In this document: positions 8,607 through 15,104 of the stretch, piece after piece | How positions within the stretch are numbered: the first letter of the stretch is position 1 | Layout of the letters: each line of letters begins with the position of its first letter | Source: a virus | Virus record (IMG/VR): IMGVR_UViG_3300003323_001359 | Coordinates: 1-64,000 of that record | Length of the DNA stretch: 64,000 nt | Direction: 5' to 3' (one strand) | Notes under the pieces: generated by a model | What the model was told of the DNA's origin: nothing | The model's input: only the letters and a program-made list of their open reading frames with translations | Database searches by the model: none | Program-made: the position numbers and the translations under genes

Positions 8607-8879
8607 TCAACGATCGAAGGTGACGGGGCCGTGGATGTCCCCGCCGGTCTGGTAGGCGGTGCCGGTGACCGGGCCGTTGATGGTGTTGTTGACCACGCGA
8701 CGGTTGGCGTGCGCCGCCACGAGCTCCGTCTCGAGGTGCTCGCTGACCGGCCTGCCGGAGCCGATCCACGCGACGTCGAAGACCTTGACTCCCTTGCGCT
8801 TGCCCTTGTAGCTGATGATGACGCCCAGGTGCTCTCGTCGGGCGTCGCTCTTGCGGTAGACCTTGTCCGCCTCGTCCAC
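8607..8879 (-). CDS. Small protein with a C-terminal BASS-like amyloid-motif sequence
   Basis: GTG 8879 after GAGAGGA; C-terminus VNNTINGPVTGTAYQTGGDIHGPVTFDR. Confidence 0.6.
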   Translation of the reverse strand: MDEADKVYRKSDARREHLGVIISYKGKRKGVKVFDVAWIGSGRPVSEHLETELVAAHANRRVVNNTINGPVTGTAYQTGGDIHGPVTFDR

Positions 8880-8915
8880 GCTCGTTCCTCTCATCCATCG
8901 CTCGTTGCTGGTGCA

Positions 8916-8944
8916 ACCGTACCACGTCCGCGGCAACTTGTAAA
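8916..8944 (-). promoter_or_regulatory. Promoter TTTACA-N17-TACGGT
   Basis: Exact spacing, same promoter family. Confidence 0.8.
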
Positions 8945-8969
8945 CACTGAAAGTTGTTGAGAAATACCC

Positions 8970-8999
8970 TGGACAACGCTCGGAGCTGCCTGGTACGGT
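8970..8999 (+). promoter_or_regulatory. Promoter of the tRNA/Y-RNA array, TGGACA-N18-TACGGT
   Basis: Divergent from the 8916 promoter, immediately 5' of the RNA cluster. Confidence 0.6.
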
Positions 9000-9034
9000 T
9001 TCACCATCACCGGTTGAACCCCGGTGGGTAGCAA

Positions 9035-9193
9035 GGGAACCTCCCGGTGCGAACGCACTCGGATACTTCAACCGGAACTCTGGGTTACGGGTTCGAGTCC
9101 CGTCGTCCCGACCTAGGTCGGGACGTGGCTCAACAGGCAGAGCAAGAGTCAGCAAGGACGCCGAGAGCGATCCCTGGTCTCGGGTAGGTTCTC
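9035..9193 (+). ncRNA. Y RNA-like 1 (YrlA-type, permuted tRNA-like domain, Pro-like acceptor)
   Basis: Terminal stem GGGAACCT-CCCG/CGGG-AGGTTCTC; GGTGCG...TACTTC...GGTCT motifs; internal order T arm, loop-closed acceptor (CGGGACG/CGTCCCG), D arm. Confidence 0.8.
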
Positions 9194-9195
9194 GA

Positions 9196-9268
9196 GGGTC
9201 TGTGGCGCAACTGGCAGCGCAGCCGTCTCCAACACGGAAGGTTCCAGGTTCGAGCCCTGGCGGGCCTG
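9196..9268 (+). tRNA. tRNA-Trp(CCA)
   Basis: Cloverleaf; anticodon loop CTCCAAC; T loop TTCGAGC. Confidence 0.9.
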
Positions 9269-9280
9269 CTTAGGAAACGA

Positions 9281-9351
9281 GCCCCACTGGTGTAACGGTA
9301 GCACCTCCGCCCCTCGAGCGGAGAGCGCCGGTTCGATCCCGGCGTGGGGTA
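9281..9351 (+). tRNA. tRNA-Glu(CTC), non-canonical C33/G37
   Basis: GCCCCAC/GTGGGGT acceptor; TCCGC-CCCTCGA-GCGGA. Confidence 0.85.
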
Positions 9352-9502
9352 CGGGGTGTCGGCACGACGGCGAACCCTGCGGAACGGTCCCGGGACCTCA
9401 CCCGCATCAGAGCTCGATGCGTAGCGAGCTTAAGCCAGGGGATGACCCGGCATCGTGCGTAGCGTGGAGAGGGAGGACCCGGTTCGATCCCGGGATGCCG
9501 GC
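9352..9502 (+). ncRNA. Unassigned structured RNA ending in a T arm plus acceptor-like stem
   Basis: CCCGG-TTCGATC-CCGGG followed by ATGCCGG pairing with CCGGCAT (9447-53); several upstream hairpins. Confidence 0.5.
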
Positions 9503-9569
9503 GCGACGTCCCGCACTCTGGGAGCCGGCAGAGGTGGTGTAGCTGGAGCACACCCTCTCAACGCGGCGA

Positions 9570-9644
9570 GGCTGTCTAGCTCAGTCAGGTTAGAGCACCG
9601 CCCTGATAAGGCGGGGGTCGGTGGTTCAAGTCCATCGGCAGCCA
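9570..9644 (+). tRNA. tRNA-Ile(GAT)
   Basis: Cloverleaf; CCGCC-CTGATAA-GGCGG. Confidence 0.92.
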
Positions 9645-9646
9645 CG

Positions 9647-9716
9647 GCGGGAAGTCGGGGGTTCGAGTCCCCTCACCTCCACCTCATGGGGGTGTACCTC
9701 AGCGGCAGAGGACCGC
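9647..9716 (+). ncRNA. Circularly permuted tRNA-Ala-like element (no anticodon loop)
   Basis: GCGG, variable region, T arm (GGGGG-TTCGAGT-CCCCT), CACCTCC-A, linker, GGGGGTG, D arm (CCTC/GAGG), CCGC; G3-U70 and A73 present. Confidence 0.7.
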
Positions 9717-9721
9717 GGCAA

Positions 9722-9793
9722 GCTGGTGTAGCTCAATGGGAGAGCGCTCCCCTGTCCAGGGAGAGGTCGCGGGTTCGATCCCCGTCTCCGGCG
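9722..9793 (+). tRNA. tRNA-Asp(GTC), non-canonical C37
   Basis: CTCCC-CTGTCCA-GGGAG; G73. Confidence 0.88.
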
Positions 9794-9818
9794 CGGGTGG
9801 CGAGTACGACGCCGCCAA

Positions 9819-9938
9819 GTTGAGATCGACAGACCGGGTCCGTCAGGTTCAACTCCTTGGCTGGACGCCGACCGTCTCGTACGCGGTTGAGGGTTCGATT
9901 CCCACCTGGTGGTAGGATCACGGTCGACAGATCTCAAC
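9819..9938 (+). ncRNA. Structured RNA with two T-loops and an anticodon-like hairpin
   Basis: GTTGAGATC/GATCTCAAC stem, GACA/GACA internal loop, GACCG/CGGTC stem; AGG-TTCAACT-CCT, ACCGT-CTCGTAC-GCGGT, GGG-TTCGATT-CCC. Confidence 0.65.
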
Positions 9939-9942
9939 GCTT

Positions 9943-10016
9943 GGCTGCCTAGCTCAGGTTGGCAGAGCGCCCGGTTGAAGCCCGGGAGGTCGCTGGTTCG
10001 AGGCCAGCGGTAGCCA
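9943..10016 (+). tRNA. tRNA-Phe(GAA), G37
   Basis: CCCGG-TTGAAGC-CCGGG; full cloverleaf. Confidence 0.9.
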
Positions 10017-10059
10017 CGAGCTTGACCCGTGCTTGCTGCACACTTGCGCGGTTCAAGCA

Positions 10060-10190
10060 TCACCTCGGTGCGAAGCTGAGCGGGTACTTCCTCGTGGAAT
10101 CGTGGGTTCGAATCCCATCGACCGGCGTGCCGGTCGTTCGCCGCAGCGGCCAAGCGGCATACCCCAACCAGCTGCCAGGTCTCGAGGTGA
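10060..10190 (+). ncRNA. Y RNA-like 2 (YrlA-type)
   Basis: TCACCTCG/CGAGGTGA stem; GTGCG, TACTTC, CAGGTCT; order T arm, closed acceptor, D-like arm. Confidence 0.8.
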
Positions 10191-10201
10191 CCACAACTTC
10201 A

Positions 10202-10349
10202 TCGTCGCGGTGCGCGCGTGAGCGGTTCCTTCACACAACCCTCGCAAGGTTGAGGTGTGGGTTCGAGTCCCACCGACCCCTCGGGGTCGTGGTGTAATCG
10301 GTAGCACGTTACTGAAGACAACACCGCCCATCATCAGGTCTCGCGACGA
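10202..10349 (+). ncRNA. Y RNA-like 3 carrying a complete permuted tRNA (anticodon CGC)
   Basis: TCGTCGCG/CGCGACGA stem; GTGCG, TCCTTC, CAGGTCT; anticodon arm CAACC-CTCGCAA-GGTTG, T arm, closed acceptor, D arm. Confidence 0.8.
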
Positions 10350-10369
10350 CCCACAACTACACACAGGCT

Positions 10370-10455
10370 TCGCCACGGTGCGAAGACCGGCGGATACTTC
10401 AATCGACTGTTAATCGGTAGCGAAACTCCGTCGGTCAGCTCAGGTCTCGTGGTGA
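10370..10455 (+). ncRNA. Y RNA-like 4 carrying only an Asn anticodon stem-loop
   Basis: TCGCCACG/CGTGGTGA stem; GACCGGCGGA/TCCGTCGGTC stem; TACTTC; ATCGA-CTGTTAA-TCGGT. Confidence 0.78.
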
Positions 10456-10457
10456 TC

Positions 10458-10558
10458 TCGTGAGCGACCGGGACGGTGCGCTGACGGACGGCTACTTCAA
10501 CGGCTGATGGTGAACACGCCGCCCGTCGCATCAGGTCTCGTCCCGGCCCAGCTCACGA
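10458..10558 (+). ncRNA. Y RNA-like 5 (minimal scaffold)
   Basis: CCGGGACG/CGTCCCGG stem plus outer TCGTGAGC/GCTCACGA; GTGCG, TACTTC, CAGGTCT. Confidence 0.75.
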
Positions 10559-10561
10559 CCC

Positions 10562-10635
10562 AGCGGGGTAGCGCAGCTCGGTAGCGCGATGGGCTCATAA
10601 CCCACAGGTCGCGGGTTCAAATCCCGTCCCCGCAA
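10562..10635 (+). tRNA. Initiator tRNA-fMet(CAT)
   Basis: 1:72 mismatch, three G-C pairs in the anticodon stem, loop CTCATAA. Confidence 0.92.
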
Positions 10636-10676
10636 CTCGGTCCCACGTTGACAGGCAGGCGACGGGGGACCGCCCA

Positions 10677-10716
10677 CGAGACCCCGATCACGCCCCGACG
10701 CGTGATCGGGGTCTCG
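10677..10716 (+). terminator. Perfect 17-bp hairpin between the RNA array and Ro60
   Basis: CGAGACCCCGATCACGC/GCGTGATCGGGGTCTCG. Confidence 0.65.
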
Positions 10717-10746
10717 CTCTGTCTGACGAGGAAGGAGCTAGGAACG

Positions 10747-12459
10747 ATGGCAGGATTCAACAAGGTGTCGGCTCAGCCGCGACGGCTGGCGGCCAGCGGG
10801 CCGCTGCGCACCGTGAGCGACGTCTCGGACACCGTCACCCACGAGAGCGCTCCCGGCTTCCAGCGCGACGCGCAGTCCGAGCTGTTCCTGCGCGCGACCA
10901 CGCGCTTCGTCGGTGAGAGGGCCTTCTACGAGACCGCGGACGCCGGTACCGACCGGCTGCGTGAGCTCGTGAGCCAGCTCGCCGTCGACGACGAGACGTG
11001 GCCGTGGGTGCGGGTCTTCCTCTCGTGGCTGCGCGGTCCGGGCAACATCCGCACCGCGTCGATCCTGCTCGCCGCGGAGGCCGTGCACTCGCGGCTCGCG
11101 GCCGGCAAGCTGGGAGACGGCAACCGTGAGCTGATCACATCGGTGCTGCAGCGACCGGACGAGCCGGGTGAGATGATCGCCTACTGGCGACACCGGTTCG
11201 GGGTCAAGCGGAGCGACGGCACGATCATCGTCCGCCTGCCGAAGCCGGTCAAGCGCGGCATCGCCGACGCCGCCACGCGGCTCTACGACGAGGCCGCGTT
11301 CCTGCGCTACGACGGCGAGGGCAAGGCGGTCCGGATCGGTGACGTGCTGGAGCTGACCCACGCCGACGTCCGCGTCTCGAGCGAGGAGCGCACCTGGCAA
11401 GACGACGTGTTCCGGTGGGCGATCACCGCGCGTCGAGGCCGCGACGCGGAGCCCCCGGAGTCCCTGACCCGGATCCACCTGCGGCACGTCCTGTCCCGGT
11501 ACGAGCCCGACCAGCGCCACGCGCTCGCGAGGAGCGCGCTCGACGGCAGCCAGGTCTCCCTGGACCTGATCCACGGCGCGATGGCCGGTCAGTGGGAGTG
11601 GCTCAAGCCGTGGCTCGGTGAGCGACCGACCGAGGTGACGCCCCTGACCGACGCCGAGATCTGGCAGCTCGCGCTGCCGACCATGGGGTACATGGCCCTG
11701 CTTCGCAACCTGCGGAACCTGGACCAGGCCGGCGTCCCGGATCCCGTGGTCGCGCCGGTGATCGCGCGCCTCGCCGACCCGGAGCAGGTCGCGAGGAGCC
11801 GTCAGCTGCCGTTCCGGCTCTGGTCCGCGTACCAGGAGGTCTCGTCCCTGCGGTGGGGCCACGCCCTGGAGCAGGCCCTGAACCACTCGCTGCGGAACGT
11901 GCCGGTCCTCGATGGCCGGACGCTCGTGCTCGTCGACGTCTCGGACTCGATGACGTGGGGCAAGCTGTCCGGGAGCTCCAAGATGGACTACGCGACCGCG
12001 GCCGCGATCTTCGGTCTCGCGCTGAAGATCCGCAACCCGGGAGGCGTCGACCTGTGGGGCTTCGCGAACCAGCAGTTCCACGTCACCGGCGTCGACGCCG
12101 GCTCGAGCCTGCTTCGGATGGTTGAGGCGTTCCGTCGGCAGCAGGGACGGGTCGGCGGCGGCACCGAGATCGCCCGGGCGATCCGGGAGACGCTGCGAGA
12201 CGACCACGCCCGCGTGATCATCCTCACCGACATGCAGACGTTCGGTGGGAACCACTGGCAGGTCGGTGACGTCGACACCGCCGCGCCGCGGGACATCCCG
12301 ATCTACGCGTTCAACGTCGCCGGCTACAAGAGCTCGGCGATGCCGGTTCAGCTGGGCAACAACCGTCACGAGCTCGGTGGCCTCACTGACGCGACGTTCG
12401 GCCTGATCCGGATCCTTGAGGCTGGGCAGGCAGGGCGGTGGCCGTGGGAGCTGAGCTGA
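10747..12459 (+). CDS. Ro60/TROVE-domain RNA-binding protein with C-terminal vWA domain
   Basis: RDAQSELF, LQRPDEPGE, PKPVKRGIADA, DVLELTH, MGYMALLRNLRN, SRQLPFR, vWA MIDAS DVSDSM, GGTEI, IILTDMQ; ATG 10747 after GAAGGAG. Confidence 0.93.
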   Translation: MAGFNKVSAQPRRLAASGPLRTVSDVSDTVTHESAPGFQRDAQSELFLRATTRFVGERAFYETADAGTDRLRELVSQLAVDDETWPWVRVFLSWLRGPGNIRTASILLAAEAVHSRLAAGKLGDGNRELITSVLQRPDEPGEMIAYWRHRFGVKRSDGTIIVRLPKPVKRGIADAATRLYDEAAFLRYDGEGKAVRIGDVLELTHADVRVSSEERTWQDDVFRWAITARRGRDAEPPESLTRIHLRHVLSRYEPDQRHALARSALDGSQVSLDLIHGAMAGQWEWLKPWLGERPTEVTPLTDAEIWQLALPTMGYMALLRNLRNLDQAGVPDPVVAPVIARLADPEQVARSRQLPFRLWSAYQEVSSLRWGHALEQALNHSLRNVPVLDGRTLVLVDVSDSMTWGKLSGSSKMDYATAAAIFGLALKIRNPGGVDLWGFANQQFHVTGVDAGSSLLRMVEAFRRQQGRVGGGTEIARAIRETLRDDHARVIILTDMQTFGGNHWQVGDVDTAAPRDIPIYAFNVAGYKSSAMPVQLGNNRHELGGLTDATFGLIRILEAGQAGRWPWELS

Positions 12460-12638: not shown

Positions 12639-12737
12639 GCGAGCCTCACCACGTAGTATAATAGTTCCAGCGTAGAGATGGTGGGGTCGGGACAGCCCGG
12701 CCCCATCGTCGTATCCGAGGAAAGGAAGCAGGAAGTG

Positions 12738-13190
12738 ATGAGACAACGAGCCTGGCTGTTCGACGTGGACGGCACCCTCGCCCTGCGAAAGCCCGGCGGT
12801 CGCGGCCCCTACGACTGGGACCGCGTCGACGAGGACGAGCCCAACGAGCCCGTGTTCGCGATCGCTCGTTCCCTGCTCGACGCCGGCGATGAGGCGGTGT
12901 TCGCGTCCGGCCGCAACGAAGTGTGCCACTACGACACAACGTGGTTCATCCACAAGCACCTGTGGGACCGGATGAGCTTCGCGACCGTCGCGGCTCACCT
13001 GCATCTCCGACCGGACACCGACGAGTGGCGCTACGCCAAGGACGTTGACCTGAAGCGGTGGCTGTACCGCGACCAGATCGAGCCGCTCTACGAGATCGCC
13101 GGCGTCTTCGATGACCGCGACCAGGTCGTTCGCCTGTGGCGCGAGGAGCTTCAGCTGCCGACGTTTCAGGTATCGAACGGTAACTTCTAG
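12738..13190 (+). CDS. HAD-family polynucleotide 3'-phosphatase (PNKP/PseT C-terminal-like)
   Basis: FDVDGTLA, PYDW, SGR, LHLRP...KDVDLK, VFDDRDQVV, FQV..GNF. Confidence 0.88.
   Translation: MRQRAWLFDVDGTLALRKPGGRGPYDWDRVDEDEPNEPVFAIARSLLDAGDEAVFASGRNEVCHYDTTWFIHKHLWDRMSFATVAAHLHLRPDTDEWRYAKDVDLKRWLYRDQIEPLYEIAGVFDDRDQVVRLWREELQLPTFQVSNGNF

Positions 13191-14375: not shown

Positions 14376-15104
<729 letters not shown>

What the first reader, a model, noticed from the sequence alone, without database searches (positions are those of the whole stretch)
9008..10418. Free-standing anticodon stem-loops with canonical loops beside real tRNAs with altered loops
Seen: 5-6 bp stems with 7-nt U33-type loops outside tRNAs at 9008-9026 (TTGAACC, GAA), 9871-9887 (CTCGTAC, CGT), 10236-10252 (CTCGCAA, CGC) and 10402-10418 (CTGTTAA, a textbook tRNA-Asn loop). 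The true tRNAs deviate: Glu CCCTCGA (C33, G37), Asp CTGTCCA (C37), Phe TTGAAGC (G37). Known: phage tRNAs are proposed to carry anticodon-loop changes that evade host anticodon nucleases. Inference: a two-part strategy of cleavage-resistant tRNAs plus sacrificial decoy loops.
Basis: partly seen in the sequence, partly recalled or inferred. Interest (0 to 1): 0.75.

Follow-up and report, generated by a model that had tools for sequence, protein, structure and literature searches.

The report
Phage Y RNAs, not tRNA decoys
The "free-standing anticodon hairpins" are mostly parts of five Y RNAs (tRNA-mimicking small RNAs) that lie among six tRNA genes just upstream of a phage Ro60 gene, a known kind of locus, and the same anticodon-like loops occur in bacterial Y RNAs, so they are not a phage-specific decoy.

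Summary
"Free-standing" is wrong.

- **The locus.** Window 9038-10546 holds five Y RNA units of the actinomycete YrlA family. They are interleaved with six tRNAs and sit directly upstream of a Ro60/Rsr gene (10747-12459).
- **Membership.** A covariance model built only from bacterial rsr-adjacent units finds all five units (E 9e-15 to 1.5e-4).
- **Hairpins 3 and 4** (10236-52, 10402-18) are the stem-loop that follows the conserved YUACUUC motif in units 3 and 4. A CU-NNN-AA loop occurs there in 29% of 214 bacterial units and 20% of 35 phage units, against 0.1% of control sites. The anticodon-loop likeness is therefore real, but it is family-wide and not a phage invention.
- **Hairpin 2** lies inside a separate 120-nt tRNA-like element.
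- **Hairpin 1** is a leader hairpin no more stable than shuffled sequence.
- **The tRNAs.** Glu, Asp and Phe loops do differ from actinomycete and other phage tRNAs. This fits a published hypothesis that remains untested. The host is unknown.

Verdict: a new member of a known kind (phage Ro60 with Y RNAs). The decoy idea is not supported, but it is not excluded.

The parts
8970..8999 (+). Possible promoter of the tRNA/Y RNA cluster: TGGACA, 18 nt, TACGGT
   Evidence: Read from the sequence. Similar TANNNT boxes precede the first unit in related arrays. The strict sigma-70 scan found nothing. Inference only.
9007..9027 (+).
   Evidence: Its fold is no more stable than shuffles (z -0.32). Loop positions 37 and 38 are C, so it lacks the canonical signature.
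9038..9190 (+). Y RNA unit 1 (full YrlA type). Outer stem 9038-45 with 9182-90; GGUGCGAA 9046-53; inner stem 9054-62 with 9161-69; AUACUUC 9063-69; T arm 9087-9103; closed acceptor-like hairpin 9104-25; D arm about 9127-46.
   Evidence: Model R1: 79.9 bits, E 9e-15. Rfam YrlA: 33.6 bits, full-length alignment.
9196..9352 (+). tRNA-Trp(CCA) 9196-9269 and tRNA-Glu(CUC) 9281-9352. The Glu loop is CCCUCGA (C33, G37).
9353..9569 (+). Segment B: structured spacer with a T arm (9478-94), a long acceptor-like hairpin and a D-arm-like hairpin. It has GCGUAG motifs but no YUACUUC motif. Unclassified.
   Evidence: No R1 match at E up to 1. No homologue in the fetched loci.
9570..9645 (+). tRNA-Ile(GAU), canonical loop CUGAUAA
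9646..9721 (+). Segment C: bare YrlA-like core (T arm, closed acceptor hairpin, D arm) without a Ro-binding stem, wedged between tRNA-Ile and tRNA-Asp
   Evidence: R1 local match 9649-9720, 39.8 bits, E 1.5e-6. Rfam YrlA 27.8 bits and permuted tmRNA 29.4 bits, both sub-threshold.
9722..9794 (+). tRNA-Asp(GUC), loop CUGUCCA (C37)
9819..9938 (+). Segment D: 120-nt element. It looks like a degenerate cloverleaf. Unclassified.
   Evidence: MFE -54.1 kcal/mol, z -3.1. Weak likeness to the tRNA 3' part. Not called as a tRNA at default settings. No homologue found.
9943..10017 (+). tRNA-Phe(GAA), loop UUGAAGC (U32, G37, C38)
10060..10190 (+). Y RNA unit 2 (full type). At the position of hairpins 3 and 4 it has a UUCC/GGAA stem with a UCGU tetraloop.
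   Evidence: R1: 49.4 bits, E 1.6e-8. The MFE fold shows the outer stem, internal loop, inner stem and four apical arms.
10202..10349 (+). Y RNA unit 3 (full type).
   Evidence: R1: 53.3 bits, E 2.6e-9. The loop aligns with the consensus loop of bacterial units. The hairpin forms in the MFE fold.
10370..10455 (+). Y RNA unit 4 (mini type, no T or D arms).
   Evidence: R1: 30.1 bits, E 1.5e-4. MFE z -3.2.
10468..10546 (+). Y RNA unit 5 (mini type)
   Evidence: R1: 31.6 bits, E 7.5e-5. Fold.
10562..10636 (+). tRNA-Met(CAU), canonical loop
10747..12459 (+). Ro60/Rsr orthologue (TROVE plus vWA), the expected protein partner of the Y RNAs
   Evidence: Pfam TROVE E 1.8e-12. PHROG 850, E 9.5e-37. 33-40% identity (tblastn) to the regions annotated 'Ro-like RNA binding protein' in actinophages. 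42-49% to actinomycete Rsr.
12678..13190 (+). Polynucleotide kinase-phosphatase type phosphatase domain (HAD), with no kinase domain
   Evidence: Pfam HAD_PNKP E 3.7e-35. PHROG 505.

Best explanation
The region is a cluster of six tRNAs and five Y RNAs, probably transcribed as one unit, placed in front of the phage's Ro60/Rsr gene.

Each Y RNA has the same base. An outer stem and an inner stem, both varying in sequence between units but keeping their pairing, flank a conserved internal loop. The 5' side of that loop is GGUGCG(AA), close to the Ro60-contacted GGUCCGA of animal Y RNAs. The 3' side carries GGUCUC. The junction motif YUACUUC follows.

On top of this base sits a variable module.
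- Units 1-3 carry a tRNA-like domain: T arm, acceptor stem closed by a loop, and D arm.
- Units 4-5 carry only a hairpin.

This is the 'V' stem-loop of published YrlA models. In actinomycete and actinophage Y RNAs it occupies the place of a tRNA anticodon arm and looks like one.

Shown here: the architecture, the family membership and the adjacency to Ro60.

Inferred from published work on YrlA and Rsr:
- The base binds Rsr.
- The tRNA-like top recruits a tRNA-recognising factor.
- tRNA-processing enzymes cut the units out of the precursor.
- The particle acts in RNA surveillance or repair during infection.

Hairpin 1 is a leader hairpin. Hairpin 2 belongs to a separate degenerate tRNA-like element. 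The altered loops of tRNA-Glu, Asp and Phe are a separate feature that fits the published nuclease-evasion hypothesis.
For: - Ro60/TROVE gene 110 nt downstream of the last tRNA.
- Rfam YrlA aligns full-length to 9056-9170, with T arm, acceptor stem and D arm in register.
- Model R1, built from 31 bacterial rsr-adjacent units only, finds all five window units full-length on the + strand at E 9e-15 to 1.5e-4. Outside the cluster the window gives only one marginal match (2468-2557, E 0.1).
- That structure is 95.6% paired, and 26 of 39 pairs show changes on both sides. No shuffle out of 500 reaches this. A mixed phage alignment gives 20 of 25 compensated pairs.
- Tandem arrays of the same units lie upstream of rsr in other uncultivated phages and in 75 of 80 actinomycete loci.
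- Hairpins 3 and 4 form in the MFE folds of units 3 and 4.
- A CU-NNN-AA loop follows the motif in 62 of 214 bacterial units and 7 of 35 phage units, against 3 of 2411 control sites.
- Positions 32, 33, 37 and 38 of the loop are conserved, and 34-36 are nearly random.
- Literature: YrlA features (5' motif, YUAY, V, T, AS and D stem-loops; found in 22 phages) in PMC4201824. Structure and the tRNA-dimer origin model in bioRxiv 10.1101/312249.
Against: - No RNA data. Transcription, processing and Rsr binding are not shown.
- The Rfam YrlA score (33.6 bits) is below the family's gathering score of 69.
- Units 3 and 5 have GCGCG/GCGCU instead of GCGAA, and unit 3 has UUCC instead of YUAC.
- The window's 3' junctions differ from those of most relatives.
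- The function of any phage Ro60-Y RNA particle is unknown.
- Segments B, C and D do not fit the full unit and remain unexplained.
Confidence: 0.85

Rival explanations
1. One reading: the anticodon-like hairpins are sacrificial or competitive substrates that soak up host anticodon nucleases, while the phage's own tRNAs carry cleavage-resistant loops.
For: - Hairpins 3 and 4 carry the full CU-NNN-AA signature, which is rare in the window.
- The loop of unit 4 is identical to the tRNA-Asn loop of Streptosporangium nondiastaticum, one of the reference actinomycetes.
- tRNA-Glu, Asp and Phe deviate from actinomycete loops.
- A PNKP-type phosphatase that could act on cleaved RNA ends lies two genes away.
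- The evasion hypothesis for phage tRNAs is published (PMC10264068).
Against: - The same loops at the same position are common in chromosomal Y RNAs of actinomycetes, so they did not arise as a phage counter-defence.
- Three of the four hairpins are buried in larger folded RNAs.
- Hairpins 1 and 2 lack the canonical flanks and are of a class expected by chance.
- The middle triplet is unconstrained across the family, whereas anticodon nucleases are sequence-specific (PMC10264068).
- Units 1, 2 and 5 have no such loop.
- No RNA ligase or RtcB was found in the record (the record is about 70% complete).
Confidence: 0.07
2. Relic model: the anticodon-like stem-loop is only a leftover of the tRNA or tRNA dimer from which YrlA-type RNAs arose, and has no present function.
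For: - The order 'hairpin, 4-5 nt AGGUC-like linker, T arm' equals the 3' two-thirds of a tRNA.
- The tRNA-dimer origin model is published.
- Model R1 weakly matches the junction of segment D with tRNA-Phe (9883-9977, E 0.05). This shows how neighbouring tRNAs resemble a unit.
Against: - Loop positions 32, 33, 37 and 38 are kept (C 67%, U 75%, A 64%, A 68%) in about 70% G+C genomes across several actinomycete orders and phages, while 34-36 drift freely.
- The stem shows compensatory changes.
- This pattern suggests selection on loop shape rather than neutral decay.
Confidence: 0.15
3. The hairpins are remains of decayed tRNA genes (pseudo-tRNAs) in a tRNA array and are unrelated to Ro60.
For: - Segment D can be drawn as a degenerate cloverleaf, and ARAGORN calls tRNAs there only at relaxed thresholds.
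- ARAGORN also miscalls Y RNAs as tRNAs in relatives.
Against: - Units 1-5 match a Ro60-linked family model full-length with covarying non-tRNA stems.
- The gene order T arm, acceptor hairpin, D arm is permuted relative to a tRNA.
- This reading can apply to segment D only.
Confidence: 0.05

Closest known systems
YrlA Y RNAs (Rfam RF02553; Chen et al. 2014, PMC4201824), including those reported next to Ro60 in 22 phages such as mycobacteriophage ET08
   Same: On the same strand and close to rsr. A 5' Ro-binding-type motif, a YUAY junction, a stem-loop upstream of the T arm, the T arm, an acceptor-like stem closed by a loop, and the D arm. Several copies per locus.
   Different: - Below the Rfam gathering score, since the seed is far from actinomycete sequences.
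- Five units in tandem, interleaved with real tRNAs.
- Two units lack the tRNA-like domain.
- The stem-loop upstream of the T arm has an anticodon-loop signature. S. Typhimurium YrlA is described as lacking an anticodon loop.
YrlB of Salmonella and other short Rsr-bound Y RNAs
   Same: Units 4 and 5 have the Ro-binding base but no tRNA-like domain. They sit beside full units, as YrlB sits beside YrlA.
   Different: No sequence homology was tested. Chen et al. found YrlB only in S. enterica.
Deinococcus radiodurans Yrn1
   Same: A Y RNA that tethers Rsr to an effector. It has been modelled with a possible 'anticodon arm' of 5 bp.
   Different: That loop has 6 nt and the arm order differs. Chen et al. 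judged its evolution independent.
Phage tRNAs with anticodon-loop changes proposed to evade host tRNases (van den Berg et al. 2023, PMC10264068)
   Same: Phage tRNA-Glu, Asp and Phe differ from actinomycete tRNAs at loop positions 32, 33, 37 and 38.
   Different: The host and its nucleases are unknown. C33 and a pyrimidine at 37 are unusual changes whose effect on decoding is untested. The paper proposes no decoys.
Circularly permuted tRNA genes and two-piece (permuted) tmRNA
   Same: The order T arm, acceptor 3' strand, linker, acceptor 5' strand, D arm. Segment C gives a sub-threshold match to permuted tmRNA.
   Different: No tag reading frame, no processing signals shown, and no anticodon arm in segment C.

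Membership tests
YrlA-type Y RNA | Encoded within 4 kb of a Ro60/Rsr (TROVE) gene on the same strand | tested here: met
   Units at 9038-10546 and rsr at 10747-12459, both on the + strand.
YrlA-type Y RNA | 5' motif of the GNCGAAN0-1G kind, resembling the Ro60-contacted GGUCCGA | tested here: met
   GGUGCGAAG in units 1, 2 and 4. GGUGCGCG and GGUGCGCU in units 3 and 5. GGUGCG is invariant in 31 bacterial units. It matches the CGAA(N)G core and is 8 of 9 identical to GGUCCGAAG, the same motif extended by two bases as recalled from human Y1 RNA (own knowledge, not a tool result).
YrlA-type Y RNA | Conserved YUAY at the junction before the stem-loop upstream of the T arm | tested here: met
   AUAC, GUAC, AUAC and CUAC in units 1, 2, 4 and 5. 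Unit 3 has UUCC.
YrlA-type Y RNA | tRNA-like domain: T arm, closed acceptor-like stem-loop and D arm, in that order | tested here: met
   Met in units 1-3 and in segment C. Not present in units 4 and 5, which are therefore Y RNAs of the short kind.
YrlA-type Y RNA | Score at or above the Rfam RF02553 gathering threshold (69 bits) | tested here: not met
   33.6 and 27.8 bits. A model built from actinomycete units gives 79.9, 53.3 and 49.4 bits for units 1, 3 and 2.
YrlA-type Y RNA | Terminal stems supported by covariation | tested here: met
   The outer and inner stems differ in sequence but stay paired in all five window units.
YrlA-type Y RNA | Bound by Rsr in cells, and modified or processed by tRNA enzymes | not testable with these tools
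   No RNA data for this phage.
   Three of the four hairpins are internal parts of larger RNAs. The triplet is unconstrained across the family.
   The same loops occur in 29% of 214 bacterial chromosomal units.
   Needs biochemistry.
Nuclease-evading phage tRNAs (van den Berg 2023) | Anticodon-loop differences from the host isoacceptor at the nuclease's recognition or cleavage site | tested here: inconclusive
   Differences from three reference actinomycetes and from other phages are shown. The host and its nucleases are unknown.

The most novel reading that the evidence does not exclude
In actinomycete and actinophage YrlA RNAs, the stem-loop upstream of the T arm is a selected anticodon-arm mimic. 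It has a 5-bp stem and a 7-nt loop with C32, U33, A37 and A38 kept and a free triplet. That would make these Y RNAs complete four-arm, circularly permuted tRNA mimics. The phage would use them, with Ro60 and the end-healing phosphatase, to bind, sense or divert proteins that read the anticodon-loop shape. These could be tRNA nucleases or modification enzymes active during infection.
Probability: 0.1. Interest if true: 0.7.

Novelty: new member of a known kind. Interest (0 to 1): 0.35.

Why it matters
- **It corrects the reading.** What looked like a new two-part anti-nuclease strategy is a Ro60-Y RNA locus, a system already described in bacteria and some phages. Its role in phage infection is still unknown.
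- **The locus is unusually rich.** It has five Y RNAs of two kinds, three further tRNA-like pieces, six tRNAs and an RNA-end phosphatase. That would make it a good test bed for what phage Ro60 particles do.
- **The family-wide anticodon-loop signature may be new.** The papers read here call this stem-loop a poorly conserved variable arm, and they describe Salmonella YrlA as lacking an anticodon loop. I did not find the signature stated in those papers. It bears on how Y RNAs arose from tRNAs and on which proteins they recruit.
- **Practical point.** tRNA finders miscall these Y RNAs as tRNAs. At least one deposited phage annotation carries such a call.

Tried and rejected
- **Rfam at gathering level.** It names only the six tRNAs. 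YrlA appears only in E-value mode.
- **DNA search of the cluster against cultured phages.** It found only tRNA-sized matches.
- **Host assignment failed.** The portal protein has no close cultured relative. The first genome scan with the single Rsr protein found nothing. The 'host' tRNA comparison therefore uses three reference actinomycetes whose Rsr is among the closest.
- **blastn of the leader and segments B, C and D against all fetched loci.** No homologues beyond a T loop.
- **ARAGORN at relaxed thresholds.** It gives conflicting low-grade calls in segment D and elsewhere, which I did not use.
- **Promoter and terminator consensus scan.** It found nothing in 8800-10800.
- **Sequencing runs.** No RNA holder is listed.
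- **Other repair enzymes.** RtcB, RNA ligase and CCA-adding enzyme families were not found in the 78-kb record, which is about 70% complete.
- **A script rejected.** I redid it with motif and stem searches.
- **Unit detection.** My automatic outer-stem pairing mis-joined neighbouring units in three cases, which I dropped, together with one redundant overlapping call.
- **Ro-binding loop.** I could not derive a convincing base-pairing scheme for the conserved internal loop itself.
Full report
**What is at the coordinates.** ARAGORN and Rfam agree on six tRNAs on the + strand: Trp 9196-9269, Glu 9281-9352, Ile 9570-9645, Asp 9722-9794, Phe 9943-10017 and Met 10562-10636.
- 9007-9027, loop UUGAACC
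- 9869-9889, loop CUCGUAC
- 10236-10252, loop CUCGCAA
- 10402-10418, loop CUGUUAA

The quoted tRNA loops are correct: Glu CCCUCGA, Asp CUGUCCA, Phe UUGAAGC.

**What surrounds them.** The reading frame that starts 110 nt after tRNA-Met (10747-12459) is a Ro60/Rsr orthologue.
- Pfam TROVE gives E 1.8e-12, with weak vWA matches.
- PHROG 850 gives E 9.5e-37.
- By tblastn it is 33-40% identical to the regions annotated 'Ro-like RNA binding protein' in Gordonia, Arthrobacter and Streptomyces phages.
- It is 42-49% identical to Rsr of Actinomadura, Planomonospora, Streptosporangium, Streptomyces and others.

The next gene (12678-13190) is the phosphatase domain of a polynucleotide kinase-phosphatase. 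The record is an uncultivated 78-kb virus contig of about 68% G+C with no close cultured relative.

**The spacers are Y RNAs.** In E-value mode, Rfam's YrlA model aligns end to end with 9056-9170 (33.6 bits, below its threshold of 69). It places a T arm, an acceptor-like stem closed by a loop, and a D arm in that order.

By eye, and then by motif and stem search, five units share one plan:
- an outer stem of 6-9 bp whose sequence differs in every unit
- an internal loop with GGUGCG(AA) on the 5' side and GGUCUC on the 3' side
- an inner stem, also different in every unit
- the junction YUACUUC
- a variable top

Units 1-3 (9038-9190, 10060-10190, 10202-10349) carry the tRNA-like domain. Units 4 and 5 (10370-10455, 10468-10546) carry only a hairpin.

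These features match those published for YrlA (PMC4201824). That paper describes a 5' GNCGAAN0-1G motif likened to the Ro60-contacted GGUCCGA, and a conserved YUAY. It also describes a less conserved stem-loop 'V' upstream of T, then T, AS and D. It reports YrlA-like RNAs near Ro60 in 254 bacteria and 22 phages, sometimes several per locus.

**An independent membership test.** The same units occur in tandem upstream of rsr in other uncultivated phages. Examples are L009, L010, L012, L013, L040, L060, L081 and L090. They also occur in 75 of 80 actinomycete chromosomal loci, 220 motif hits in all.

I aligned 31 bacterial units, with no phage sequence and nothing from the window, and built model R1 from them. 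R1 finds the five window units full-length:

| Unit | Coordinates | Bits | E-value |
|---|---|---|---|
| 1 | 9040-9188 | 79.9 | 9e-15 |
| 3 | 10202-10349 | 53.3 | 2.6e-9 |
| 2 | 10060-10190 | 49.4 | 1.6e-8 |
| 5 | 10468-10546 | 31.6 | 7.5e-5 |
| 4 | 10370-10455 | 30.1 | 1.5e-4 |

It also finds the bare core in segment C (9649-9720, 39.8 bits). Outside the cluster the 64-kb window gives only one marginal match (2468-2557, E 0.1).

On the bacterial alignment the structure is 95.6% paired, and 26 of 39 pairs are compensated. No shuffle out of 500 reaches this, and slid controls fall to 37-49% paired. A mixed phage alignment gives 20 of 25 compensated pairs.

- *Hairpins 3 and 4* are the stem-loop right after YUACUUC in units 3 and 4, and they form in the MFE folds. 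In unit 3 the hairpin is followed by a 4-nt linker and the T arm, exactly where a tRNA has its anticodon arm. Unit 2 has a tetraloop hairpin at that place. Unit 1 has no clear hairpin, and unit 5 has a 4-bp stem with a 13-nt loop.
- *Hairpin 2* sits between two T-loop hairpins in a 120-nt element. That element is closed by a 9-bp stem, a GACA/GACA loop and a 5-bp stem (z -3.1). It resembles a degenerate cloverleaf and has no homologue in the loci I held.
- *Hairpin 1* follows a possible TGGACA-N18-TACGGT promoter and precedes unit 1. It folds no better than shuffles (z -0.32).

**Is the anticodon likeness more than chance?**
- Generic hairpins of at least 5 bp with a 7-nt loop and U at loop position 2 occur 103 times on the + strand, about 1.6 per kb. 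Hairpins 1 and 2 are unremarkable.
- The full YU-NNN-RA signature occurs five times on that strand. Three of these are in this cluster: tRNA-Ile and hairpins 3 and 4.
- Across the family, a hairpin with a CU-NNN-AA loop follows the motif in 62 of 214 bacterial units (29%) and 7 of 35 phage units (20%). Among other CTTC sites in the same loci the figure is 3 of 2411, or 0.1%.
- In 111 bacterial units with a stem of at least 4 bp, loop positions 1, 2, 6 and 7 are C 67%, U 75%, A 64% and A 68%. The middle three positions carry only 0.08-0.15 bits of information.
- The two variable stem pairs show compensatory changes.
- ARAGORN is fooled by these RNAs and calls nine of them tRNAs. One of them coincides with the annotated 'tRNA-Ser(gct)' of Streptomyces phage LuckySocke.

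They are a conserved part of Y RNAs in bacteria and phages alike.

The papers I read describe this stem-loop as a less conserved 'V' arm. They describe S. Typhimurium YrlA as lacking an anticodon loop. The published tRNA-dimer origin model would explain the arrangement.

**The real tRNAs.** Thirty-seven distinct tRNAs from Actinomadura pelletieri, Streptosporangium nondiastaticum and a Streptomyces all have U33 and a purine at 37. Their loops are Glu CUCUCAA, Asp CUGUCAA and Phe CUGAAAA. Other phages' Glu, Asp and Phe tRNAs in my loci are also canonical at these positions. The window's Ile and Met loops are canonical.

The deviations in Glu (C33, G37), Asp (C37) and Phe (U32, G37, C38) are thus real and rare. 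They fit the proposal that phage tRNAs carry loop changes that evade host tRNases (PMC10264068). The host, its nucleases and the function of these tRNAs are not known.

**Verdict on the decoy idea.** It is not supported, for these reasons:
- The elements are not free-standing.
- Only two of the four have the canonical signature.
- The signature is shared with bacterial chromosomal Y RNAs.
- The triplet is unconstrained, whereas anticodon nucleases are sequence-specific.
- The record lacks an RNA ligase or RtcB (the record is incomplete).

It is not excluded. A tRNA mimic tied to Ro60 beside an RNA-end phosphatase could still meet tRNA-directed enzymes. I give about 0.07 to the decoy as stated and about 0.1 to a broader version.

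**How it most likely works.** The steps below are marked as shown or inferred.
- *Inferred:* the cluster is transcribed from about 9007.
- *Inferred:* RNase P and RNase Z release the tRNAs, and with them the Y RNAs. M. smegmatis YrlA is a substrate for RNase P and for CCA addition.
- *Inferred by homology:* the GGUGCGAA-bearing base binds the phage Rsr.
- *Inferred; effector unknown:* the tRNA-like top, including the anticodon-like arm, recruits a tRNA-recognising partner.
- *Shown:* the architecture, the covariation, the family membership and the gene neighbourhood.

**Earlier notes of this scan.** I reached the same reading before I looked these up. My tests agree with the first two.

Noticed in passing
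L018:3774-3847 (Streptomyces phage LuckySocke, OR725497.1, gene 36): The annotated tRNA-Ser(gct) is really the 5' part of a YrlA-type Y RNA: a Ro-binding motif, GAUACUUC, an anticodon-like hairpin with loop CUGCUAA, and a T arm. ARAGORN makes the same mistake in L010 (SeC), L012 (Ile, Gln), L036, L060, L113, L119, L129 and L134.
   Followed up: partly
window 9646-9721: A bare T arm, closed acceptor hairpin and D arm core with no Ro-binding stem, wedged exactly between tRNA-Ile and tRNA-Asp. The 3' strand of the acceptor is followed by ACC before the linker. It matches model R1 locally (39.8 bits) and gives a sub-threshold match to permuted tmRNA.
   Followed up: partly
window 9819-9938: A 120-nt element with a 9-bp closing stem, a symmetric GACA/GACA internal loop and two T-loop hairpins (UUCAACU, UUCGAUU) flanking the CUCGUAC hairpin. 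No homologue was found in any fetched locus.
   Followed up: partly
window 9353-9569: A 217-nt structured spacer with a T arm, a long interrupted acceptor-like hairpin, a D-arm-like hairpin and two GCGUAG motifs. It has no YUACUUC junction and is not matched by model R1.
   Followed up: no
window 10191-10201 and 10350-10366; also spacers in L010, L012, L040, L060, L081: The short spacers between successive Y RNA units share a motif close to CACAACUUCA. In the window the outer stems of units 2, 3 and 5 are followed by CCA-containing tetramers. This may be a processing signal.
   Followed up: no
window 10680-10713: A 14-bp G+C-rich hairpin followed by a weak U-rich tract, lying between tRNA-Met and the ribosome-binding site of rsr. 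It may be an attenuator, terminator or processing site separating the RNA cluster from rsr.
   Followed up: no
window 10018-10058: A long hairpin directly after tRNA-Phe and before Y RNA unit 2. Unassigned.
   Followed up: no
L138-L217 (actinomycete rsr loci), about 1-600 nt upstream of rsr: Arrays of 2-5 Y RNA units per locus are the rule in Streptosporangiales, Streptomyces, Lentzea, Micromonosporaceae and Nocardia. Some units have a T arm directly after the junction motif and no hairpin. Short units carrying the same CAAA-CUGCUAA-UUUG hairpin occur in one bacterial locus (L146) and in phage contig L060, and a near-identical one (CUGCUAG) in phage contig L081.
   Followed up: partly
window 14397-15104: A protein with a LysM-like region and a transglycosylase (Rpf-like) domain lies a few genes downstream of rsr, ahead of the terminase.
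   Followed up: no
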